A DNA stretch of 64,000 nucleotides from Patescibacteria group bacterium (lineage in GTDB: Bacteria > Patescibacteriota > Patescibacteriia > UBA1558 > GWA2-36-10), in contig JAHJQF010000001.1 in the NCBI GenBank assembly GCA_018819405.1, positions 34,097-98,096 on the forward strand. The letters run 5' to 3'. Positions 1 to 37,411 of this stretch are shown in pieces; position 1 is the stretch's first letter; each line of letters starts with the position of its first letter. The position numbers were made by a program, and so were the translations under genes. The notes below the pieces were generated by a model. It was not told where the DNA came from. It did no database searches and worked only from the letters and a program-made list of their open reading frames with translations.

Positions 1-792
1 CAATTATTAAAACAATTCAAAGAATTGGGTTTGTATCCACCTGATGGTTTCGATCCAATAAAGCATACTTACTATGAACCATTTGTAGGTGGTGGGGCAG
101 TATTTTTGGATTTGTTACCAAAAAAAGCTGTGCTATCAGATTTAAATATTGAGCTTATAACTACTTATAAAGTCATTAAGAATGACGTGACTAAATTGAT
201 AAAACTTTTAAAATCTTATAAATACGATAAAGATTTTTATACCAAAGTAAGGAGTAAAAATATTAAAGATTTATCAGATATTCAAATAGCGGCTAGATTT
301 ATTTATCTTAATCGTACCTGTTTCAATGGACTTTATAGAGTAAATAGAAAAGGAGAATTTAATGTACCCATGGGAGAATATACCAACCCCCTAATTTGTG
401 ATGAGGAAAATCTAAATAAAATTTCCAAAGCTCTCAAAAATGTAAAAATATACAACGAAGATTATAAAAAAGTTTTAAAGCGTGCCAAAAAAGGTGACTT
501 TATTTATTTTGATCCGCCATATTATCCAGTAAATAAGACTTCAAATTTTACCAACTATACTACTCAAGATTTTTTGGAAAAAGAACAAGCAGAGCTCAGA
601 AATACTTTTTTTGAGCTACATAAACGAGGTTGTTTTGTAATGTTATCAAATTCTGATACCCCATTTATAAACAAACTTTATTCAAATTTAGATAAAAAGA
701 TAAAAGTAAATAAAGTGTTAGCTGGTAGAAATGTAAATTCTGATGCTAAAAAAAGAGGCAAGATAAAAGAAGTTTTGGTTATTAATTATTAG
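1..792 (+). CDS. Dam/DpnM-family GATC N6-adenine DNA methyltransferase (5'-partial, starts upstream of window)
   Basis: Frame is open from nt 1. Translation aligns with the Dam/DpnM family (alpha-class D12): YEPFVGGGAVFLDL (motif I), NGLYRVNRKGEFNVPMG, GDFIYFDPPY (motif IV), FVMLSNS, RGKIKEVLVINY C-terminus. Confidence 0.9.
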   Translation, partial: QLLKQFKELGLYPPDGFDPIKHTYYEPFVGGGAVFLDLLPKKAVLSDLNIELITTYKVIKNDVTKLIKLLKSYKYDKDFYTKVRSKNIKDLSDIQIAARFIYLNRTCFNGLYRVNRKGEFNVPMGEYTNPLICDEENLNKISKALKNVKIYNEDYKKVLKRAKKGDFIYFDPPYYPVNKTSNFTNYTTQDFLEKEQAELRNTFFELHKRGCFVMLSNSDTPFINKLYSNLDKKIKVNKVLAGRNVNSDAKKRGKIKEVLVINY

Positions 793-796
793 TTTT

Positions 797-2425
797 ATGG
801 ATTTTTTTGCTAAAAGTTATAAATTATCAGCTATTTTACAAAAAAGAGAATTTATAATACCAGAATTTCAGAGAGAATATACGTGGGGAAAAGATCAGTT
901 AGATGAATTTTGGGATGATATAAATTCTGCCGAAGGTGATTATTTTTTAGGAACAATTGTGTTATCTGGCAAAGACTTTGATAGTATGGGACCCTTTAGA
1001 ATCATAGATGGACAACAAAGGTTGACCACAATATTAATTTTAATTAATAGATTAATATTTAGATTTGAAAATATAAAAGAAGGTAATGAATTAGCAGAGG
1101 CTCTGAAGAGTAGAATATTTTTTAAGGATGATAACGCAAAAGATCATATAATATTGCAAAATCAAAATGCTCATAAATATTTTCAAGACATTGTTTTGTA
1201 TAATAATGTAAATAATGATAGCAACGTAGAGGCTAAAAAATTAAATGAAGCAAAAGAATATTTTAGTAGTAAATTAAAATCTTTTGATATAGTTAAATTG
1301 AAAGATATCAGAAATATTTTATTAAATCTCGATTTTATAGTTGTCCTTCAGGATGATGATCAAAGTGCTATAAATATTTTCGTAACTCTGAATTTTAGAG
1401 GTGTTAATTTAGATATTTTAGATCTAGTCAAGAGTTTTATTGTTACAAAATTTAAAAAACAAGAAGGGATAGATGATCCTAGGGTTACATGGAAAAATAT
1501 TTTAGAAAATATAAAAATAAATAGAAAAAATTTTTTTAATAGATATTGGGCATCATATTATGAAAAAATTAGTGAGCCTAAATTATATAAAAATTTTAAC
1601 AACAAGAAAGACTCTATAGGAGCTGAAAATCTTTTAAAAAGTCTTTTAAAATTTTCAGAAGTATATAGAGATGCTTTGGATTCTGAGTCAACAGATTGGG
1701 GATTATATTGTCCTTATGATAAAAAATTAGGCACTAAAATTAGAGGAATGATTTATTCATTGGATAAATTTAATATAAAAGTACATTATTCATTTCTTAT
1801 CACTTTGCTTGAATTATCAAAAAATAAAAAAATACATCAAAATAAAATTATCAAAATGATTAGTATCATTGAAAAATTTCATTTTTTATTTAATGCTGTT
1901 TGTTCATATAGACCATCTGGCTTGGACACTTTATATTCTAAATACGCAGTACAGCTTAGACTTGAGGGGGAAGATAGTGATTCAATTTTTTCAAGTTTAA
2001 CAGAAGAATTAGTTAAAAGAATCCCCGAAAAAGAGGAGTTTATCTCATTATTTAAAGAATTAAGTTATACGAAAGATAAGGGTTTAATTTTGTATATTTT
2101 TAGATTATTAGAGAAAAAATATTCGCCAGGAAAGGATGTTGATATATCAGAAGAATCGTTAGATCATTTATCCCCTCAAGCCAGTAATGAAGTTTGGACT
2201 CATAATATTGGCAATTTAATTTTATTGGAAAAAGAGCTTAACAAAAAAAGAGACAACAAAGATTTATCATCTTCATATAAAATAATGGAAAAAACATCAT
2301 TTGAATCCACATCAAATTTTTTAAAAGTTAAACTTTCTAAATGGGATGAAGAAGCTTGTAAGCAAAGAGCGATAATTTTGGCGGAGGAAATATATAATTA
2401 CACTATTAATAGTTTAAAAATATGA
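797..2425 (+). CDS. DUF262 (ParB/Srx-like, DGQQR) + DUF1524 (His-Me finger) protein, GmrSD/type IV restriction-like
   Basis: N-terminal IPEFQREYTW...DGQQRLTT motif is typical of DUF262. C-terminal DHLSPQAS...WTHNIGNLILLEKELNKKRDNK is a DUF1524 His-Me finger-like nuclease motif. Start is 5 nt after the MTase stop, and the stop overlaps the next start (ATGA). Confidence 0.75.
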   Translation: MDFFAKSYKLSAILQKREFIIPEFQREYTWGKDQLDEFWDDINSAEGDYFLGTIVLSGKDFDSMGPFRIIDGQQRLTTILILINRLIFRFENIKEGNELAEALKSRIFFKDDNAKDHIILQNQNAHKYFQDIVLYNNVNNDSNVEAKKLNEAKEYFSSKLKSFDIVKLKDIRNILLNLDFIVVLQDDDQSAINIFVTLNFRGVNLDILDLVKSFIVTKFKKQEGIDDPRVTWKNILENIKINRKNFFNRYWASYYEKISEPKLYKNFNNKKDSIGAENLLKSLLKFSEVYRDALDSESTDWGLYCPYDKKLGTKIRGMIYSLDKFNIKVHYSFLITLLELSKNKKIHQNKIIKMISIIEKFHFLFNAVCSYRPSGLDTLYSKYAVQLRLEGEDSDSIFSSLTEELVKRIPEKEEFISLFKELSYTKDKGLILYIFRLLEKKYSPGKDVDISEESLDHLSPQASNEVWTHNIGNLILLEKELNKKRDNKDLSSSYKIMEKTSFESTSNFLKVKLSKWDEEACKQRAIILAEEIYNYTINSLKI

Positions 2426-2958
2426 AAAAAGACGGAACAGGTGGCTCTAACACACAAACAGGAATTAATTTTGAAAATAAAATAGATTTATTAGTTTTTT
2501 TAGATAAAAATGTTAAAGGGTATTCTGTAAAAAAAGTAGGCATAGGCTCAGAAATTTATTATGAAAATAAATTAGTTGCAAATTCTTTTAAGAAACACGA
2601 GCTTTATAAGTTCCTTAGTTCTAAGGGAATTGATTACAAAAAATATTTATCAAAAAAATTGTTGCCAGATGATGCTATCTACGTAATTAAAGAAAATACC
2701 CTTTTTATTATAGAAGTTAAATATCAGCAAGTTGGTGGCTCGGTAGATGAAAAATTACAGACTTGTGATTTTAAATTGAAGCAATATAAAAAACTTTTTT
2801 CAGAATTAAATTATGAAGTGGAATATATTTATATTATTAGTGATTGGTTTAAGAGCGATGGTTATAAAGATACTTTAGAATATATTATAGAAGTTGGTTG
2901 TAAATATTATTTTGAATATTTACCACTACATAAAATAGGCCTGCCTGTGCCAAAATAA
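2422..2958 (+). CDS. Short PD-(D/E)xK nuclease resembling the catalytic core of DpnII/MboI-family restriction endonucleases (possibly truncated)
   Basis: LPDDAIYVIKENTLFIIEVKYQQVGGSVDEKL carries a D...(D/E)-x-K signature and resembles the C-terminal core of R.DpnII (recalled from memory). At 178 aa it is much shorter than the about 288 aa DpnII REase. Confidence 0.5.
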   Translation: MKKDGTGGSNTQTGINFENKIDLLVFLDKNVKGYSVKKVGIGSEIYYENKLVANSFKKHELYKFLSSKGIDYKKYLSKKLLPDDAIYVIKENTLFIIEVKYQQVGGSVDEKLQTCDFKLKQYKKLFSELNYEVEYIYIISDWFKSDGYKDTLEYIIEVGCKYYFEYLPLHKIGLPVPK

Positions 2959-2962
2959 AAAT

Positions 2963-3712
2963 ATGAAGAAAAGCGAAGTTAATTTACACCCAGAAAATTT
3001 TGATTTAGAGTGTACTACGGTTTGGTCATTTCCCAGACGTGGTAAATGGGCTACGCATAAATCAGATTGGCGTGGAAATTGGGCACCAGAAGTAGTGCGC
3101 AATCTTATTTTACGTTATTCAAAAGAAGGCGATCATTTGCTTGATTGTATGATTGGCGGGGGAACAACTGCCATTGAAGCCAAAATTTTAAATAGAAATA
3201 TAACCTGCGTAGACGTAAACGAAGAAGCTCTGGAAATAACCAAAAAAGTTTTAAAATTTGAAGTTGACAATCAAGCAACACAAAGGATAAAGAAGTGTGA
3301 TGCTAGGCAAATGAGTTTTATAAAAGATGAAGAGATTGATTTTGTGCTTACTCACCCACCATATGCAGATATTATAAAATACAGTGATGGAAAAATAAAA
3401 GAAGATTTATCAAATATTCATGACATTGATGAATTTGTAAAAGAGATGGCTTTTGTAGCTAAAGAAATTTATAGGGTTTTAAAACCAGGTAAATATTGTG
3501 CAATTTTGATTGGTGACACCAGAAGACAAAAGATGTATCAGGTGATTTCTTATAAGGTAATGGATGAATTTATAAAATTAGGATTTAAACTAAAAGAGGA
3601 TATTATAAAACAACAGCATAATTGTAAGGCTACTGGTTTTTGGGCTAAAAAATCAAAAGAATATAATTTTTTACTTATAATGCACGAGCATCTATTTATT
3701 TTTCAGAAATAA
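2963..3712 (+). CDS. N6-adenine/N4-cytosine (amino) DNA methyltransferase, DpnA-like but with motif I preceding motif IV
   Basis: SKEGDHLLDCMIGGGTTAIEA (AdoMet-binding motif I) is followed by FVLTHPPYADI (motif IV, (D/N/S/T)PPY). The N-terminal half resembles the C-terminal half of beta-class MTases such as DpnA (recalled from memory), i.e. a permuted order. Confidence 0.7.
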   Translation: MKKSEVNLHPENFDLECTTVWSFPRRGKWATHKSDWRGNWAPEVVRNLILRYSKEGDHLLDCMIGGGTTAIEAKILNRNITCVDVNEEALEITKKVLKFEVDNQATQRIKKCDARQMSFIKDEEIDFVLTHPPYADIIKYSDGKIKEDLSNIHDIDEFVKEMAFVAKEIYRVLKPGKYCAILIGDTRRQKMYQVISYKVMDEFIKLGFKLKEDIIKQQHNCKATGFWAKKSKEYNFLLIMHEHLFIFQK

Positions 3713-3726
3713 TTTTTACAAGCTAT

Positions 3727-3757
3727 TAAAAAACTGACCCCTAGGGTCAGTTTTTTA
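3727..3757. terminator. Bidirectional rho-independent terminator between convergent genes
   Basis: aaaaaa-CTGACCC-cta-GGGTCAG-tttttt: 7-bp stem flanked by an A-run and a T-run. Confidence 0.7.
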
Positions 3758-3766
3758 TTAATTTAT

Positions 3767-4288
3767 CTATTTCTTTTTAGCAACTGCTTTTTTCTTGGGA
3801 GCTGCTTTTTTCTTGGCCGGAGCTTTTTTGGCTACGACTTTTTTCTTGCTAGTTGCTTTGACTTCTACTACCACCGGTGTCTCATCAGCTTCTACTTCTG
3901 TAGTAGGAGCGTCTGGTACCAATACTTTCATCAATTGGTCTACTTTGTAGTTTAGAGTCTTGATAGCTTTGAGGATTTCTTTTTCTTTGGAATCCTGAGC
4001 TACTTTTGCTCCCCTGTCTTCAAAGCTTGGTCTTCTGTCTCTAGCACCTCTATCACCGCCGCCTTGTTTGCTAAAACAATCACTGCAGTAAATAGGCTTG
4101 TCGCCACGAGGCTTGAATGGCACTTCGCACTCTTTGTGACAGGCATCACAAATTGCTTTGTGCATACTTGGACGGTCAAAACCTCCGCCGCCTCTATTGA
4201 ATCCCCCACCTGAACCACGGCGATCAAAGCCGCCTCTGTCTCTCCTGTCACCTGACCTACCGCCTCTATCCCTGTTAAAATTTCCCAT
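3767..4288 (-). CDS. Small nucleic-acid-binding-like protein: RGG/Gly-Arg-rich N-terminus, FCS/YacG-like C-x2-C...YCSDC zinc ribbon, Lys/Ala-rich histone H1-like tail
   Basis: RGGFDRRGSGGGFNRGGGGFDRP repeats; CDACHKECEVPFKPRGDKPIYCSDCF (C-x2-C-x18-C-x2-C); C-terminal KKKVVAKKAPAKKKAAPKKKAVAKKK. Confidence 0.6.
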   Translation of the reverse strand: MGNFNRDRGGRSGDRRDRGGFDRRGSGGGFNRGGGGFDRPSMHKAICDACHKECEVPFKPRGDKPIYCSDCFSKQGGGDRGARDRRPSFEDRGAKVAQDSKEKEILKAIKTLNYKVDQLMKVLVPDAPTTEVEADETPVVVEVKATSKKKVVAKKAPAKKKAAPKKKAVAKKK

Positions 4289-10074: not shown

Positions 10075-11016
10075 ATGAATTCTATTATTACTACTATCTT
10101 GGCTCTTCTAGCCCTATTTTATATTTTAGGAAAATCAGCTGATTTGGCTATTTATCATCTTAAAATCATTGCCAAAAAATTGGGCATTGGTGTTTTCTTT
10201 TTAGGACTGACAATGGGCTTTTTCACTTCTTTTCCTGAATTAGCTATTGGGATCAATACTATTATTGAAGGCGTACCAAATGTATCATTGGGCAACTTAT
10301 TTGGCGGTTTGATGGTTTTGTTTGGATTGGTCTTGGGTATTAGTATTTATTTGCAACGAAAAATAGATTCTGATTATGACTATCGGGTTTTTGGTATTAT
10401 CTTACTGTTTTTGTTTGTGCCTATTTTATTTGGTCTTGACGGAACTTTTGGCACTATTGATGGTTTGATAATAACTATTTCTTATTTTGTTATATTATTC
10501 ATTTTATATTATCGCCAAAAACATACTATCAATATCCCCCATATAATAGACAGAAAAGATATAACAAAGCATACTTTTCTTTTTTTATTAGGGCTAGTCA
10601 TGGTTTTATTGGTAGCTAATTTTACAGTCCATCTCACAGTAGGACTTTTGTCTTATTTGCCGCTTAGCAAATTTGTTGTTGGAATTATCATCTTTTCTAT
10701 TGGTACCAACTTTCCAGAAATAGTCATTGCTTTTAGGTCTTGGCGAAACAATGCCAAAGAGCTGTCTTTTAGTAATCTACTTGGTTCTGGTATGGCCAAT
10801 ATTTTGTTGGTAGGAGTCTTTTCAATTATGCGACCTTTTAGTATAAAAATAGATAATTCTTATTATTTACTTATTATTGGAATAGCTGTTTTGTTGTCTT
10901 TGCTTTTTTTGTTTTACCGAACCGGACGATCCTTAAAGAGAGGCGAAGGATTAATACTAATTATTATCTATTTACTCTTTATAGTCACACAGATTATTTT
11001 TGAAGAATCAATATAG
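10075..11016 (+). CDS. CaCA-family Na+/Ca2+ (cation/Ca2+) exchanger
   Basis: Multiple TM helices with two alpha-repeat signatures, GFFTSFPELAIGI and GTNFPEIVIAF. Confidence 0.8.
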   Translation: MNSIITTILALLALFYILGKSADLAIYHLKIIAKKLGIGVFFLGLTMGFFTSFPELAIGINTIIEGVPNVSLGNLFGGLMVLFGLVLGISIYLQRKIDSDYDYRVFGIILLFLFVPILFGLDGTFGTIDGLIITISYFVILFILYYRQKHTINIPHIIDRKDITKHTFLFLLGLVMVLLVANFTVHLTVGLLSYLPLSKFVVGIIIFSIGTNFPEIVIAFRSWRNNAKELSFSNLLGSGMANILLVGVFSIMRPFSIKIDNSYYLLIIGIAVLLSLLFLFYRTGRSLKRGEGLILIIIYLLFIVTQIIFEESI

Positions 11017-11124
11017 AAATATAGAAACAAAAAATAGCCTTTAGTGCTATTTTAAAGTCAACTCCACACTTTGGATGAGTTTAGAACTATGGATTGGTAT
11101 AGAATAAAAACTGAGTTAAATCAA

Positions 11125-11535
11125 CTATCCATTCTTAGCAATAAATAAAATATATATAATAGTAATAATTGATGGAATTATAATTATAATAATCCGAATA
11201 ATAAATTTTTTTATCAAACTTGCTATATCAGTTTTACCTGTAATATCTTTTTCAGTAAAAGGTAAATTAAAGATTGCTATAAAAATAGCAATAGACCTAT
11301 GAATAATAGATAAAATTATTTTTTTTGAACGTTGAAAATTTTCTTTATTTGGATGGGATCTAAGTATAATGTTAAGACAGACAAAAATAATAGTCCATAC
11401 TATAGTTATCGTTTCCATTTCGCTTGGCATCAGATCTTTATTATGAGTATCAAGCCTTTCTACGATGCTAGCTGAAATAAAAAAAATTATTAACAGCCAA
11501 GAAGCTACTATTGCAATTTTATCTATTTTATTCAT
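11125..11535 (-). CDS. Hypothetical membrane protein (136 aa), flanked by about 23-bp direct repeats
   Basis: Hydrophobic and Ile-rich. Flanked by caaaaaatagcctttag(g/t)gc repeats near 11030 and 11550. Confidence 0.35.
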   Translation of the reverse strand: MNKIDKIAIVASWLLIIFFISASIVERLDTHNKDLMPSEMETITIVWTIIFVCLNIILRSHPNKENFQRSKKIILSIIHRSIAIFIAIFNLPFTEKDITGKTDIASLIKKFIIRIIIIIIPSIITIIYILFIAKNG

Positions 11536-11668: not shown

Positions 11669-11743
11669 TGGCTCCGGGAGGGGGATTCGAACCCACGACC
11701 AATTGATTAACAGTCAACTGCTCTACCACTGAGCTATCCCGGA
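11669..11743 (-). tRNA. tRNA-Asn(GTT): tRNA-Asn (anticodon GTT), CCA encoded
   Basis: Manual cloverleaf fold: acceptor TCCGGGA/TCCCGGA, D-arm GCTC-AGTGGTA-GAGC, anticodon stem GTTGA/TCAAT with loop cTGTTaa, T-loop TTCGAAT, 3' GCCA. Confidence 0.8.
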
Positions 11744-11982
11744 ATGAATTTTTTAATAAATTGTCTACCCCGATAACTTTTTAGTTGTTTTTCTCTGGTC
11801 AGGGCTTCTTTTCTTGTTTTAATTTTTTCAGAATATATGATTTCCCAATTTCCATCAAATTTAGATGTATACCCAGAAAATATTTTTTTATTGTGTATAG
11901 TCAAACGTTCTGATAGATTTTTTGTTTGACCAATATAAAATTTATTTACTGTTTTGTTATAAATAGCATAGACAGTATACAT
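11734..11982 (-). CDS. GIY-YIG domain nuclease (UPF0213-like, 82 aa); 3' end overlaps the tRNA-Asn 5' end by 10 nt
   Basis: YAIYNKTVNKFYIGQTKNLSERLTIHN...REKQLK is a GIY-YIG motif. Confidence 0.7.
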   Translation of the reverse strand: MYTVYAIYNKTVNKFYIGQTKNLSERLTIHNKKIFSGYTSKFDGNWEIIYSEKIKTRKEALTREKQLKSYRGRQFIKKFIPG

Positions 11983-12003
11983 ATCGCTTTTCTAAATTTT
12001 ATA

Positions 12004-12045
12004 AACTGCTCTGCCTCCGCCAGCTGGCGGAGAGCTATCCCGGAA
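12004..12045 (-). repeat. Degenerate duplicate of the tRNA-Asn 5' portion (aactgctct...gagctatcccggaa) containing a hairpin
   Basis: 14-nt exact match gagctatcccggaa (12032-12045 vs 11731-11744) plus an upstream aactgctct match. The intervening ctccgccagctggcggag is an inverted repeat. Confidence 0.6.
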
Positions 12046-12048
12046 AAA

Positions 12049-12300
12049 TTATAAACTATTTTTTATCAAATTTTCTTTGGCTGTTTTGCTCCAAGTCTTT
12101 ATTTCCGCTTCTCTTTTCATAGCCTTGCCAACCGAAGCAAACTCCTCCCAGTAAATTATTTTAACAGGCCTTCTTTGTTTTGTATATTTAGCACCTTGAC
12201 CACTATTATGTTTGAGCTCTCTATCTTTTAAATTTGTAGTATAGCCTGTATAGATTGTGTCATCACTGCAACGGGCAAGATAACAATAATATTTTTTCAT
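12049..12300 (-). CDS. GIY-YIG domain nuclease (second copy, 83 aa)
   Basis: YYCYLARCSDDTIYTGYTTNLKDRELKHN...REAEIKTW is a GIY-YIG motif. Confidence 0.7.
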   Translation of the reverse strand: MKKYYCYLARCSDDTIYTGYTTNLKDRELKHNSGQGAKYTKQRRPVKIIYWEEFASVGKAMKREAEIKTWSKTAKENLIKNSL

Positions 12301-12319
12301 TTGTTTTGCTCAGTTGAAT

Positions 12320-12396
12320 TGGTAGCAGGGGGGAGAATCGAACTCCCGACCTCAGGCTTATGAGTCCTACGCTCTAACCAACTGAGCTACCCTGCC
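12320..12396 (-). tRNA. tRNA-Met/Ile2(CAT): tRNA with CAT anticodon (elongator Met or Ile2/lysidine), CCA encoded
   Basis: GGCAGGGTAGCTCAGTTGGTTAGAGCG...loop CTCATAA...GGGAGTTCGATTCTCCC...CCCTGCTACCA. Cloverleaf with one A-G mismatch in the anticodon stem. Confidence 0.7.
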
Positions 12397-12416
12397 TAAG
12401 AATAGATATAAAATTT

Positions 12417-12492
12417 TGGTAGCGGGGGCCGGACTCGAACCGGCGACCTTCAGGTTATGGGCCTGACGAGCTGCCAACTGCTCTACCCCGCG
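12417..12492 (-). tRNA. tRNA-fMet(CAT): Initiator tRNA-fMet (CAT), CCA encoded
   Basis: CGCGGGGTAGAGCAG...GTCAGGCCCATAACCTGAAGGTCGCCGGTTCGAGTCCGGCCCCCGCTACCA is nearly identical in architecture to E. coli tRNA-fMet (recalled), including an unpaired C1. Confidence 0.8.
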
Positions 12493-12515
12493 TCGTGAAA
12501 TAAATATAATTTTGG

Positions 12516-12592
12516 TGGTCGGAGTGGTGGGACTTGAACCCACGACCTTACGCACCCCATGCGCACGCGCTAGCCAACTGCGCCACACCCCG
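12516..12592 (-). tRNA. tRNA-Pro(GGG): tRNA-Pro (anticodon GGG), CCA encoded
   Basis: Acceptor CGGGGTG/CACTCCG, D-arm GCGC-AGTTGGCTA-GCGC, anticodon stem TGCGC/GCGTA with loop aTGGGGt, T-arm GTGGG-TTCAAGT-CCCAC. Confidence 0.75.
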
Positions 12593-12640
12593 CAAAATTA
12601 TATACTAAAGTATAGAGGGTTATGGCACAATTTACAAGTT

Positions 12641-12717
12641 TGGTGGACCCAAGGAGACTTGAACTCCTGACCTCTTCCATGCCATGGAAGCGTTCTAGCC
12701 AACTGAACTATGGGCCC
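12641..12717 (-). tRNA. tRNA-Ala(GGC): tRNA-Ala (anticodon GGC) with G3-U70 identity pair, CCA encoded
   Basis: GGGCCCATAGTTCAGTTGGCTAGAACG-CTTCC-aTGGCat-GGAAG...TGGGTCCACCA; a G3:U70 pair is present. Confidence 0.8.
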
Positions 12718-12810
12718 TATAAATAATTGCTTAATTGTCTAATTGATTAATAGTTTAATTGTTCTTATCAATTATCCTATTATACTATCAATCTATATAG
12801 CCTATTAATT

Positions 12811-12897
12811 TGGTACCGAGGAGAGGAATCGAACCTCCACGGGGTTGCCCCCACTGGATTTTGAGTCCAGCGCGTCTACCAATTCCGCCACCTCGGC
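12811..12897 (-). tRNA. tRNA-Leu(CAA): tRNA-Leu (anticodon CAA), long variable arm, CCA encoded
   Basis: GCCGAGGTGGCGGAATTGGTAGACGCG-CTGGA-cTCAAaa-TCCAG-TGGGGGCAACCCCGT-GGAGGTTCGATTCCTCT-CCTCGGTACCA. Confidence 0.8.
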
Positions 12898-37320: not shown

Positions 37321-37411
37321 TGGCGGAGAGGACAGGATTCGAACCTGCGAGGGATTTTACTCCCTACTCGCTTTCCAAGCGAGCGCACTAGACCAACTAT
37401 GCGACCTCTCC
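37321..37411 (-). tRNA. tRNA-Ser(GGA): tRNA-Ser (anticodon GGA), long variable arm, CCA encoded
   Basis: GGAGAGGTCGCATAGTTGGTCTAGTGCG-CTCGC-tTGGAaa-GCGAG-TAGGGAGTAAAATCCCTCGC-AGGTTCGAATCCTGT-CCTCTCCGCCA. Confidence 0.8.

What the first reader, a model, noticed from the sequence alone, without database searches (positions are those of the whole stretch)
1..3712. DpnII-like GATC R-M cassette with rearranged gene order and an inserted DUF262/DUF1524 (GmrSD-like) gene
The first gene aligns end to end with DpnM/Dam (FEPFVGGGA, NGLYRVN, DPPY). The fourth gene resembles the DpnA-type second MTase but in permuted order (motif I GGGTT before THPPY). The third gene (178 aa) carries the D-x-IEVK core resembling the R.DpnII/MboI endonuclease family but is about 110 aa shorter than the DpnII REase. 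Between MTase 1 and this short nuclease sits a 542-aa DGQQR (DUF262) + His-Me (DUF1524) protein, joined by a 5-nt gap upstream and an ATGA overlap downstream. The canonical order dpnM-dpnA-dpnB is therefore broken. A modification-dependent-type nuclease embedded inside a modification-protected type II operon is unusual. It may represent a hybrid defence operon, or a decaying REase complemented by a new nuclease partner.
Basis: partly seen in the sequence, partly recalled or inferred. Interest (0 to 1): 0.6.

Follow-up and report, generated by a model that had tools for sequence, protein, structure and literature searches.

The report
GATC restriction operon with embedded GmrSD nuclease
A low-GC, horizontally acquired four-gene operon in a Patescibacteria genome combines two DNA methylases, a small uncharacterised nuclease that most likely cuts unmethylated GATC, and a GmrSD-type nuclease of the kind that attacks modified DNA; it is one example of a widespread modular cassette, not a decaying DpnII system.

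Summary
The four genes exist as described. They are a Dam methylase (cut by the window edge), a 542-aa GmrSD-like protein with intact DGQQR and His-Me motifs, a 178-aa PD-(D/E)XK nuclease, and a circularly permuted N6_N4 methylase. They are packed 4 nt apart or overlapping, at 27% GC against 38% in the rest of the window, and end in one hairpin terminator.

The 178-aa gene is not a truncated DpnII/MboI enzyme. It gives no DpnII HMM hit. It is a full-length member of a large, highly conserved, uncharacterised family (Pfam PDDEXK_11; about 1,000 clusters at 50% identity, nearly all 170-190 aa). That family sits next to Dam-type and/or DpnA-like methylases in almost every locus examined.

In sister cassettes with the same Dam and the same permuted methylase, its slot holds DpnII-family or MutH-family nucleases instead. 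I therefore infer that it is a methylation-sensitive GATC endonuclease; this was not tested.

A GmrSD gene lies directly after Dam in about 16% of such cassettes. These genes belong to several lineages only 23-32% identical to each other. More distant relatives stand alone in other genomes.

Best reading: a type II GATC restriction-modification operon carrying an embedded, autonomous type IV enzyme. This extends the known embedding of GmrSD in type I, BREX and Hma systems to type II.

The parts
1..792 (+). Dam-family (alpha-class, D12) N6-adenine methylase, presumed GATC-specific. The 5' end is cut by the window: 56 codons lie upstream and the full protein is 319 aa.
   Evidence: Pfam MethyltransfD12 2.5e-58; TIGR00571 dam 1.2e-77; PADLOC MTase_II 1.8e-87. 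Full gene at L001 7412-8371. Motifs at nt 82-99, 325-345 and 511-522.
797..2425 (+). GmrSD-like protein (HEC-06 type): an N-terminal DUF262/ParB-like NTPase domain and a C-terminal DUF1524 His-Me nuclease domain. Presumed type IV (modification-dependent) restriction enzyme.
   Evidence: GmrSD_N 4.7e-34 and GmrSD_C 2.5e-10. PADLOC HEC-06 8.1e-64 over the full length. DGQQR, H457, G472-N473-L474 and N482 are invariant across 12 cassette GmrSDs.
1007..1021 (+). DGQQR nucleotide-hydrolysis motif of the GmrSD protein
   Evidence: Q79A and R80A in the equivalent motif abolish HEC-06 defence (bioRxiv 10.1101/2024.01.29.577857).
2162..2257 (+). His-Me (HNH-like) nuclease motif of the GmrSD protein: DHLSP ... 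GNL ... N
   Evidence: It corresponds to EHICP in HEC-06 and DHIYP in BrxU, whose acidic residue and His are required for defence.
2422..2958 (+). 178-aa PD-(D/E)XK nuclease of the uncharacterised PDDEXK_11 family. Inferred to be a methylation-sensitive type II restriction endonuclease for GATC.
   Evidence: Pfam PDDEXK_11 6.6e-05. 5,268 homologues, all about 178 aa. AF2 pLDDT 82.8, with only superfamily-level PD-(D/E)XK fold matches. Methylase neighbours in almost all loci. Its slot holds DpnII and MutH family nucleases in sister cassettes.
2665..2766 (+). Catalytic core of the nuclease: P82-D83-D84 ... E98-x-K100-x-Q102 ... GSVDEKLQTC
   Evidence: Invariant in 26 family members; coordinates.
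2963..3712 (+). Second methylase (M2): an N6_N4_Mtase-related enzyme with circularly permuted motif order (I before IV) and an invariant HPPY motif IV
   Evidence: Pfam N6_N4_Mtase 1.7e-24 in two stretches. PADLOC MTase_II PDLC03376 4.3e-91. Permutation shown against PDB 2zie. Family alignment A4 has 77% mean column identity.
3727..3757 (.). Strong hairpin (14-bp stem) with T-runs on both sides: the likely bidirectional terminator closing the operon
   Evidence: L001 11306-11336; window position = L001 position minus 7579. No + strand terminator-like site lies inside the operon.

Best explanation
The region is a horizontally acquired, co-transcribed four-gene restriction cassette of a modular family. 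Two methylases form the conserved outer frame.

**The parts**
- **Dam** (first gene) marks host GATC as G6mATC.
- **The 178-aa PDDEXK_11 nuclease** is the methylation-sensitive type II endonuclease. It cuts unmethylated GATC in incoming DNA.
- **The permuted methylase M2** (last gene) is the counterpart of the second methylase of DpnII/MboI-type systems. It holds the position that DpnA-like beta methylases hold in related cassettes.
- **The GmrSD-like gene** between Dam and the nuclease is an embedded, autonomous NTP-dependent His-Me nuclease of the type IV kind. It attacks DNA whose bases are hypermodified and which therefore escapes GATC cleavage. One operon thus covers both unmodified and modified invaders.

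**Shown here**
- The domain identities and the intact catalytic motifs.
- The operon-like packing.
- Recurrence of the same architecture elsewhere.
- Interchangeability of the nuclease slot.

**Inferred**
- GATC specificity of the 178-aa nuclease and of M2.
- Modification dependence and the substrate of the GmrSD protein.
For: **1. Operon and horizontal origin**
- Gaps are 4 nt, a 4-nt overlap, and 4 nt.
- There is one strong terminator after gene 4 and none inside on the + strand.
- The cassette is 27.2% GC against 38.0% in the rest of the window.

**2. The nuclease family is a restriction-enzyme partner of GATC methylases**
- Counts for 82 non-redundant genome loci:

| Arrangement | Loci |
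|---|---|
| Beta methylase - R3 | 30 |
| Dam - R3 - methylase | 14 |
| Dam - DpnII - R3 - methylase | 6 |
| Dam - methylase - R3 (DpnII order) | 7 |
| Dam - R3 only | 4 |

- The beta methylases are 52-66% identical to the N. gonorrhoeae NgoAXI methylase fragments, which REBASE lists as beta/GATC (PMC6789123 Table 1).
- A distant homologue on a Leuconostoc plasmid follows an annotated DNA adenine methylase.
- A natural fusion of Dam and this nuclease exists, P0310.

**3. Slot interchangeability**
- In cassettes with Dam 61-81% and M2 72-82% identical to the window's, the same slot holds several families:
  - DpnII (PF04556)
  - MutH family (PF02976, 4.5e-18)
  - PDDEXK_11
  - DUF6996/6997
  - a Pfam-less protein of about 205 aa

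**4. GmrSD**
- All 8 relatives of the window's GmrSD at 34% identity or more that I checked lie in Dam-GmrSD-R-M2 cassettes.
- 10 of about 63 resolved M2-anchored metagenome cassettes carry a GmrSD directly after Dam.
- The catalytic residues are invariant.
- Relatives at 30-32% identity in Leptolyngbya and Pectobacterium stand alone with no methylase nearby, so the protein type works autonomously.
- HEC-06-type proteins give phage defence that needs the DGQQR and (D/E)H motifs.
- GmrSD-family enzymes embedded in BREX and type I loci restrict modified phages alongside the host system.

**5. GATC frequency**
- GATC is mildly under-represented in the window: O/E 0.72, third lowest of the 16 palindromic tetramers.
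Against: - No member of the PDDEXK_11 family has been characterised. It gave no hit in PADLOC or NCBIfam, none in the phage collection, and no close solved structure. The literature search for the family name found nothing.
- GATC specificity therefore rests entirely on gene context.
- In 7 loci the family co-occurs with a DpnII-family gene in one cassette. It may therefore do something a DpnII enzyme does not: cut hemimethylated or single-stranded DNA, or read a narrower site.
- The GATC depletion is weak and TCGA and TGCA are lower.
- The GmrSD substrate is unknown.
- The constant position right after Dam could indicate a tighter functional link than simple embedding.
- M2 has an unusual HPPY motif IV, and neither its target base nor its site is known.
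Confidence: 0.65

Rival explanations
1. Integrated system. The GmrSD-like protein is functionally coupled to the restriction-modification genes rather than autonomous. One version: it reads the host's G6mATC mark as 'self', as SspE reads phosphorothioate, and attacks DNA lacking it. Another version: it guards the system and fires when a phage inhibits it, as PrrC does for EcoPrrI.
For: - GmrSD always sits immediately after Dam, 1-13 nt away, in several lineages only 23-32% identical to each other, while the nuclease slot downstream varies.
- The window's nearest Dam relatives (L094, L088, L105) all keep GmrSD although the nuclease differs.
- SspE is a DUF262/DUF1524 protein that depends on the host's modification (cited).
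- PrrC is embedded in a type I locus and senses its inhibition.
Against: - Relatives at 30-32% identity are stand-alone genes with no methylase nearby.
- GmrSD also occurs at other positions in related cassettes: after R3 in L036, between R3 and M2 in L060, after M2 in L158.
- Most cassettes with the same frame lack GmrSD altogether.
- On the Dam tree, cassettes with and without GmrSD are interspersed.
- The characterised embedded GmrSD proteins, BrxU and TgvAB, act independently of their host systems.
Confidence: 0.12
2. Different specificity. Genes 3 and 4 form a type II pair for a site other than plain GATC, such as a longer site containing GATC or an unrelated site. Dam is then a separate, orphan-like methylase that merely travels with them.
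For: - The commonest arrangement of the nuclease family is a two-gene pair with a single N6_N4 methylase and no Dam (30 of 82 loci).
- M2 has an atypical HPPY motif.
- The nuclease co-occurs with DpnII in some cassettes, which redundancy alone does not explain.
Against: - In four loci (L008, L040, L054, L073; two of these, L040 and L073, sit at contig ends) and on the Leuconostoc plasmid, Dam is the only adjacent methylase. Dam methylation must therefore protect against the nuclease there.
- A Dam-nuclease fusion exists.
- The partner beta methylases are orthologues of a DpnA-like methylase that REBASE lists as GATC.
- The slot is shared with DpnII and MutH family nucleases inside the same Dam...M2 frame.
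Confidence: 0.1
3. Chance neighbour or passenger. The GmrSD gene is a selfish or neutral insertion, possibly inactive, with no role in defence. The conserved methylase frame is simply a tolerated landing or recombination site.
For: - Many unrelated genes occupy the interior of the frame: OLD-like ATPase, AIPR, DndB-like, NOV_C and Mrr.
- GmrSD presence is patchy.
Against: - The catalytic motifs are invariant across lineages that have diverged to about 25% identity, which indicates purifying selection on activity.
- The gene is in the same orientation and tightly coupled in every case.
- The other occupants are themselves mostly known defence nucleases, the pattern called 'guilt by embedding'.
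Confidence: 0.08
4. One reading: gene 3 is a decaying, truncated DpnII/MboI endonuclease whose function has been taken over by the GmrSD nuclease.
For: There is a local resemblance of the catalytic core: D..(L/F)xIEV(K/N)(Y/F)..GGS aligns between the two families over 51 columns at 31% identity.
Against: - No PF04556 hit.
- The hhalign probability is 1.9%.
- 5,268 homologues and about 1,000 clusters at 50% identity are nearly all 170-190 aa, with 57 invariant positions among the 26 aligned.
- The AF2 model is a compact, complete PD-(D/E)XK domain, pLDDT 82.8.
- The same full-length gene is present in cassettes without GmrSD.
Confidence: 0.02

Closest known systems
DpnII restriction-modification cassette of Streptococcus pneumoniae (dpnM-dpnA-dpnB) and the MboI system
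   Same: - It has two methylases plus one endonuclease in one operon, and the first methylase is Dam-type.
- The target is GATC and the block is 6mA (reviewed in PMC12707154).
- Sister cassettes of the window's carry a true DpnII-family endonuclease.
   Different: - The order is Dam-(GmrSD)-R-M2, not M-M-R.
- The endonuclease here belongs to an unrelated-by-HMM, uncharacterised family of 178 aa.
- The second methylase is a circularly permuted HPPY enzyme, not beta-class DpnA.
- A fourth gene (GmrSD) is present.
HEC-06 (GmrSD-like protein embedded in Hma systems; Payne et al., bioRxiv 10.1101/2024.01.29.577857)
   Same: - It is the best PADLOC match: 8.1e-64 over the full length.
- It has the same DUF262 + DUF1524 architecture.
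- The DGQQR and (D/E)H-x-x-P motifs, shown there to be needed for phage defence, are present.
- It too is embedded in the same orientation inside a methylase-containing defence operon.
   Different: - The host system here is a three-gene type II GATC cassette, not Hma.
- That survey covered only Hma, BREX, DISARM and type I.
- Sequence identity to the tested HEC-06 protein was not measured.
BrxU in the pEFER BREX island (PMC8565348) and TgvAB in the Vibrio cholerae VPI-2 type I system (bioRxiv 10.1101/2024.04.04.588119)
   Same: These are GmrSD-family type IV enzymes embedded inside a modification-based defence locus. They give complementary protection against phages with modified DNA.
   Different: - The host systems differ (BREX, type I).
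- The PADLOC match to the BrxU-type models (HEC-05) is weak, 7.6e-07 over a short stretch.
- phmmer found no significant match to any PDB chain.
Neisseria leuS/dam/drg locus (NgoAXI)
   Same: N. gonorrhoeae carries, downstream of drg, a frameshifted DpnA-like methylase followed by a truncated 47%-identical homologue of the 178-aa nuclease. This is the remnant of a Dam/DpnA/nuclease cassette of the same kind.
   Different: - The Neisseria copy is decayed and unannotated.
- Dam has been replaced by the DpnI-family Drg endonuclease (PMC4269198, PMC6789123).
- There is no GmrSD.
Fusobacterium vincentii SB055 Dam-DpnII-Mrr-M2 cassette
   Same: - It has the same frame: Dam first and the permuted HPPY methylase last (58% identical).
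- A GATC endonuclease and a type IV-like nuclease sit inside.
- In F. nucleatum ATCC 10953 a Dam homologue methylates GATC and unmethylated vectors fail to transform. Whether that is the same locus was not checked.
   Different: The endonuclease is DpnII family, and the embedded enzyme is Mrr_cat, placed after the endonuclease rather than after Dam.

Membership tests
DpnII/MboI endonuclease family (Pfam PF04556), for gene 3 | Significant match to the DpnII HMM | tested here: not met
   No PF04556 hit at E <= 0.1. True members in sister loci score 1.3e-97 and 4.7e-109.
DpnII/MboI endonuclease family (Pfam PF04556), for gene 3 | Profile-level homology and a length of about 280 aa | tested here: not met
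   hhalign of A1 against A2 gives a 51-column core match, E = 0.026, probability 1.9%. Family length is 170-190 aa.
PDDEXK_11 (Pfam PF20472), for gene 3 | HMM match at or above the gathering score | tested here: inconclusive
   The window protein scores 23.1 bits against a cut-off of 23.7. Many 60-88% identical homologues carry a precomputed PF20472 hit, and P0255 scores 24.0.
PD-(D/E)XK nuclease superfamily, for gene 3 | Conserved D...(D/E)xK catalytic motif on an alpha/beta restriction-endonuclease-like fold | tested here: met
   D83/D84, E98 and K100 are invariant. The AF2 model has pLDDT 82.8. The best Foldseek hits are XisH, Hjc, BstEII (TMq 0.45), HincII and BsoBI, all weak.
Type II restriction endonuclease specific for GATC, for gene 3 | Adjacent cognate methylase | tested here: met
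   A Dam and/or N6_N4 methylase is adjacent in all but 6 of 82 loci. Those 6 are at contig edges or have unresolved gene calls. A Dam-nuclease fusion also exists.
Type II restriction endonuclease specific for GATC, for gene 3 | Cleavage at unmethylated GATC, blocked by G6mATC | not testable with these tools
   Inferred from context only.
Dam family (MethyltransfD12 / TIGR00571), for gene 1 | HMM match above the cut-off, with motif I FxGxG and motif IV DPPY in alpha-class order | tested here: met
   198.2 bits (cut-off 22) and 261.2 bits (cut-off 114.85); motifs at nt 82-99 and 511-522.
GmrSD family (DUF262 + DUF1524), for gene 2 | Both domains present above the gathering score, joined in one chain | tested here: met
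   GmrSD_N 118.7 bits (cut-off 33.2) at residues 12-215; GmrSD_C 40.8 bits (cut-off 23) at residues 411-530.
GmrSD family (DUF262 + DUF1524), for gene 2 | DGQQR motif and the His-Me (D/E)H...N...N motif | tested here: met
   D71-R75, H457, N473 and N482 are invariant in alignment A3.
GmrSD family (DUF262 + DUF1524), for gene 2 | NTP-stimulated cleavage of modified DNA only | not testable with these tools
   No biochemical data; assumed by analogy with GmrSD, BrxU and TgvAB.
HEC-06 (PADLOC), for gene 2 | Full-length match to the HEC-06 models | tested here: met
   PDLC04154 8.1e-64, residues 12-531 against profile positions 16-559 of 569.
HEC-06 (PADLOC), for gene 2 | Embedded in an Hma (helicase-methylase-ATPase) system | tested here: not met
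   The neighbours are Dam, a PD-(D/E)XK nuclease and an N6_N4 methylase; there is no helicase or ATPase.
DpnA-type beta-class N6_N4 methylase, for gene 4 | Motif order IV (DPPY) before I (FxGxG) | tested here: not met
   Motif I (GGGTT, residues 65-69) precedes motif IV (HPPY, 131-134). The alignment to 2zie is permuted.
DpnII-type GATC restriction-modification system (whole cassette) | Dam-type methylase, a second methylase and a GATC endonuclease in one operon | tested here: inconclusive
   The architecture is met. The endonuclease and second methylase belong to other families, and their GATC specificity is inferred, not shown.

The most novel reading that the evidence does not exclude
The GmrSD-like protein may be a working partner of Dam rather than an independent passenger. 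In one version it uses G6mATC as the self mark and licenses attack on unmarked or differently marked DNA. In another it fires when a phage blocks the GATC endonuclease or methylase. Either would make Dam-GmrSD a new two-component, methylation-referenced restriction module, one that has repeatedly exchanged its classical endonuclease partner among at least five unrelated nuclease families.
Probability: 0.12. Interest if true: 0.8.

Novelty: new variant of a known kind. Interest (0 to 1): 0.5.

Why it matters
1. It points to a large, uncharacterised family of small nucleases as probable GATC restriction enzymes. The family has about 1,000 clusters at 50% identity and is spread from Patescibacteria to Bacteroidales, Campylobacterota and Neisseria. 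It would be a source of new isoschizomers and an annotation fix for thousands of 'hypothetical proteins'.
2. It shows that GATC restriction-modification cassettes form a modular frame. Two conserved methylases bracket an interior that swaps among at least five non-homologous nucleases (a sixth, DpnI-family occupant marks a decayed cassette). The interior also takes up extra defence genes: GmrSD, Mrr, OLD-like and AIPR.
3. It extends 'defence genes embedded in defence systems', so far surveyed in type I, BREX, DISARM and Hma, to small type II operons. It does so in Patescibacteria, whose immunity is poorly known.
4. The GmrSD lineages in one slot are only about 25% identical while the flanking genes are 60-80% identical. 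That makes a clean natural test case for arms-race-driven turnover.

Tried and rejected
- **Solved relatives of the 178-aa protein.** A sequence search of the PDB found only noise.
- **Family libraries.** PADLOC and NCBIfam gave nothing for the 178-aa protein. The phage collection gave no match. A literature search for 'PDDEXK_11' found no paper.
- **Homology to DpnII.** Profile-profile comparison with DpnII was not significant. In the profile search of 1.84 billion representatives, the top 150 hits were nearly all 100-260 aa. The two longer ones are fusions of the domain with another domain (P0255, 290 aa; P0310, 489 aa), not DpnII-family proteins.
- **GATC under-representation.** It is real but weak (O/E 0.72) and not the strongest among palindromic tetramers, so I did not use it as main evidence.
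- **Published experimental handles.** I read the Prevotella intermedia and Fusobacterium methylome papers looking for one on this nuclease family. They concern MboI/DpnII-type loci and Dam only.
- **A single ancestral insertion of GmrSD.** The Dam tree shows cassettes with and without GmrSD interspersed. GmrSD also occurs at other positions (L036, L060, L158). Repeated gain, loss or replacement fits better.

Full report
**What is in the window**

Four + strand ORFs fill positions 1-3712.

- **Gene 1 (1-792)** is a Dam-family N6-adenine methylase.
  - It matches Pfam MethyltransfD12 at 2.5e-58, TIGR00571 'dam' at 1.2e-77, and a PADLOC type II methylase model at 1.8e-87.
  - The window cuts off its first 56 codons. 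A longer contig of the same organism, a Patescibacteria group bacterium, gives the full 319-aa gene. It also shows that no DpnII-type gene lies upstream; the upstream neighbours are a 90-aa HNH_3 gene on the other strand and housekeeping genes.
- **Gene 2 (797-2425, 542 aa)** has both GmrSD domains above Pfam's thresholds. It matches PADLOC's HEC-06 models over its full length at 8.1e-64.
- **Gene 3 (2422-2958, 178 aa)** matches only Pfam PDDEXK_11, just under the cut-off, and not DpnII.
- **Gene 4 (2963-3712, 249 aa)** is an N6_N4_Mtase relative whose two halves align to the profile in swapped order.

Several features indicate an operon of foreign origin:

- The junctions are a 4-nt gap, an ATGA overlap and a 4-nt gap.
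- A 14-bp-stem hairpin follows gene 4, and there is no internal + strand terminator.
- The cassette is 27% GC against 38% for the rest of the window.

**Gene 3 is a complete member of a large family, not a shortened DpnII**

- The word-indexed search found 5,268 homologues. The best 120 are all 155-191 aa and 61-100% identical, and they come from many phyla.
- An exhaustive profile search found 1,019 clusters at 50% identity, nearly all 170-190 aa.
- Twenty-six diverse members share 57 invariant positions. These include E18, P82-D83-D84, E98-x-K100-x-Q102 and GSVDEKLQTC.
- AlphaFold gives a confident compact alpha/beta domain, pLDDT 82.8. Its only PDB fold matches are weak hits to PD-(D/E)XK proteins: XisH, Hjc, BstEII and HincII.
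- A DpnII-family alignment built from related loci aligns to it only over the catalytic core: 51 columns, E = 0.026, probability 1.9%.
It does not establish family membership, and the 'about 110 aa missing' idea is wrong.

**What gene 3 does, judged from context**

I fetched 80 genome loci encoding the family and labelled the neighbours. The nuclease, called R3 here, almost always touches a methylase.

| Arrangement | Loci (of 82) |
|---|---|
| Beta-class N6_N4 methylase - R3 | 30 |
| Dam - R3 - methylase | 14 |
| Dam - DpnII - R3 - methylase (Bacteroidales) | 6 |
| Dam - methylase - R3, the DpnII gene order | 7 |
| Dam - R3 only | 4 |

- The DpnII genes in the Bacteroidales loci score 1.3e-97 against PF04556.
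- The beta methylases are 52-66% identical to a frameshifted DpnA-like methylase in Neisseria gonorrhoeae. That gene lies between drg and an unannotated, truncated 47%-identical copy of R3. REBASE lists the locus (NgoAXI) as beta-class, GATC (PMC6789123).
- A 29%-identical homologue on a Leuconostoc plasmid follows an annotated DNA adenine methylase.
- One database protein, P0310, is a Dam-R3 fusion.
- Where Dam is the only neighbouring methylase, Dam methylation must be what protects the host.
- The simplest reading is a GATC endonuclease blocked by G6mATC. This is an inference; no member has been characterised.

**The GmrSD gene is a recurrent occupant of this cassette**

- The window's GmrSD has a small clade of relatives, 34-57% identical. 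All eight I could place lie in the order Dam-GmrSD-R-M2.
- Across those cassettes, Dam is 64-77% identical to the window's. M2 is 73-82% identical in all but L092, which carries a beta-class methylase instead.
- Among seven of those cassettes, the R gene differs:
  - PDDEXK_11 in the window and L094;
  - MutH family in L088 (4.5e-18);
  - DpnII family in L090, L092, L095 and L096.
- Anchoring on M2 instead (alignment A4), a metagenome scan returned 80 more loci. HMM labelling gave the following:
  - About 63 have a resolved upstream region.
  - The R slot holds DpnII (about 25), MutH-like (about 10), PDDEXK_11 (about 8), a DUF6996/DUF6997 protein (about 10) or a Pfam-less protein of about 205 aa (5).
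  - Ten carry a GmrSD, always directly after Dam.
- Those GmrSDs fall into several lineages only 23-32% identical to one another. Their Dam and M2 stay 61-82% identical to the window's.
- DGQQR and the His-Me residues are invariant across them.
- On a Dam tree, cassettes with and without GmrSD and the different R types are interspersed. The window's nearest neighbours all keep GmrSD.
- Other genes found inside the same frame are an OLD-like ATPase-TOPRIM (L007, L017), AIPR (L128), a DndB-like protein (L117), NOV_C (L174) and Mrr_cat. The Mrr_cat cases are L122 and a Fusobacterium vincentii chromosome with Dam-DpnII-Mrr-M2.

**How it most likely works**

Dam, and probably M2, mark host GATC. 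The 178-aa nuclease destroys unmarked DNA. The GmrSD protein is an embedded type IV enzyme for DNA whose modified bases defeat the type II enzyme.

Three points favour autonomy of the GmrSD protein:

- Homologues at 30-32% identity in Leptolyngbya and Pectobacterium are solitary genes.
- GmrSD also sits at other positions in related cassettes (L036, L060, L158).
- Most cassettes lack it altogether.

The literature supports the model. HEC-06-type proteins defend against phages and need the same motifs. BrxU in BREX and TgvAB in a type I system restrict phages with modified DNA alongside their host systems. GmrSD neighbourhoods are enriched in type I genes.

The constant position after Dam keeps a coupled mechanism alive as a minority reading. 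That would be either methyl-mark sensing like SspE or guarding like PrrC. I give it about 12%.

**Comparison with known systems, and novelty**

- As a system it works like DpnII/MboI: two methylases and GATC.
- Its endonuclease and second methylase fail the membership tests for DpnII (PF04556) and for beta-class DpnA.
- Embedding of GmrSD enzymes is established for type I, BREX and Hma. The systematic survey did not look at type II, and I found no paper linking GmrSD with DpnII-type cassettes.
- The finding is therefore a new variant of a known kind. It carries two useful by-products: a probable new GATC endonuclease family, and a picture of GATC cassettes as a conserved methylase frame with a rapidly exchanged nuclease interior.

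**Limits**

- All specificities are inferred from context.
- GATC depletion in the window is modest: O/E 0.72, with TCGA and TGCA lower.
- My ORF calling in fetched loci was simple, and counts near contig ends are approximate.
- Some loci were fetched because they contain GmrSD. Only the ORF3-anchored set (4 of 82) and the M2-anchored set (10 of about 63) give unbiased frequencies.

Noticed in passing
L086 3989-4444 (N. gonorrhoeae NZ_CP119142.1, about 10,934-11,389): Downstream of leuS-drg the gonococcal chromosome carries a frameshifted DpnA-like methylase (L086 3291-3668 and 3714-3992). It is followed by an unannotated, C-terminally truncated homologue of the 178-aa nuclease (151 aa, 47% identical). 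Papers on the drg/NgoAXI locus mention only the truncated methylase.
   Followed up: partly
L169 5306-7708 and L170 (metagenome contigs Ga0209417_1003783 and Ga0076064_121): In a Dam...M2 frame, a DpnI/Drg-family gene (PF06044 1.9e-73 plus DpnI_C) sits in the nuclease slot. Dam is truncated to 247 aa and the N-terminus of M2 is disrupted. This looks like a 'dam-replacing' event like the Neisseria one, in an unrelated lineage.
   Followed up: partly
P0310 (489 aa, from the representative search): A single protein with an N-terminal Dam domain (MethyltransfD12 8.5e-55, residues 20-268) and a C-terminal PDDEXK_11-family domain (residues 322-485). It is either a natural methylase-nuclease fusion or a read-through. 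Its genomic context was not examined.
   Followed up: partly
L097 3351-6717 (Fusobacterium vincentii SB055, NZ_CP084075.1; filed in PLSDB as a 2.1-Mb 'plasmid'): A Dam-DpnII-Mrr_cat-M2 cassette lies directly after dnaE. The record is a chromosome mislabelled as a plasmid, as are the two N. gonorrhoeae records of about 2.17 Mb.
   Followed up: partly
L107 2518-3276 and nine similar loci; L104 6388-6996 and four similar loci: Two more candidate GATC endonuclease families occupy the nuclease slot of Dam...M2 cassettes. One is a 252-aa DUF6996+DUF6997 protein (5.2e-52). The other is a protein of about 205 aa with no Pfam match and a D...EVK motif.
   Followed up: partly
L034, L044, L048, L056, L071, L084 (Bacteroidales); L051 (Sulfurimonas); L057 (Akkermansia): A DpnII-family gene and a PDDEXK_11-family gene sit side by side in one Dam/methylase cassette. 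That gives two different putative GATC nucleases together, which simple redundancy does not explain.
   Followed up: no
L007 5194-6991; L017 5232-6989: An OLD-like ATPase (AAA_15/AAA_21 plus an OLD-like TOPRIM) is inserted between Dam and the nuclease. It is split into two ORFs in L007.
   Followed up: partly
window 3767-4288 (- strand): A 173-aa protein with an RGG/GGF-rich N-terminus, a treble-clef zinc finger (zf_Tbcl_2, 5.7e-17) and a lysine/alanine-rich basic tail. It converges on the cassette's terminator.
   Followed up: no
L001 6933-7205 (about 375-650 nt upstream of window position 1, - strand): A 90-aa HNH_3 gene lies just upstream of Dam inside the low-GC stretch. L002 has a GIY-YIG gene at the equivalent place. 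These may be homing-endonuclease-like passengers at the cassette border.
   Followed up: no
window 11669-12897 (- strand): A cluster of six tRNA genes (Asn, Met, Met, Pro, Ala, Leu); a seventh (Ser) lies at 37321-37411. Unremarkable.
   Followed up: no
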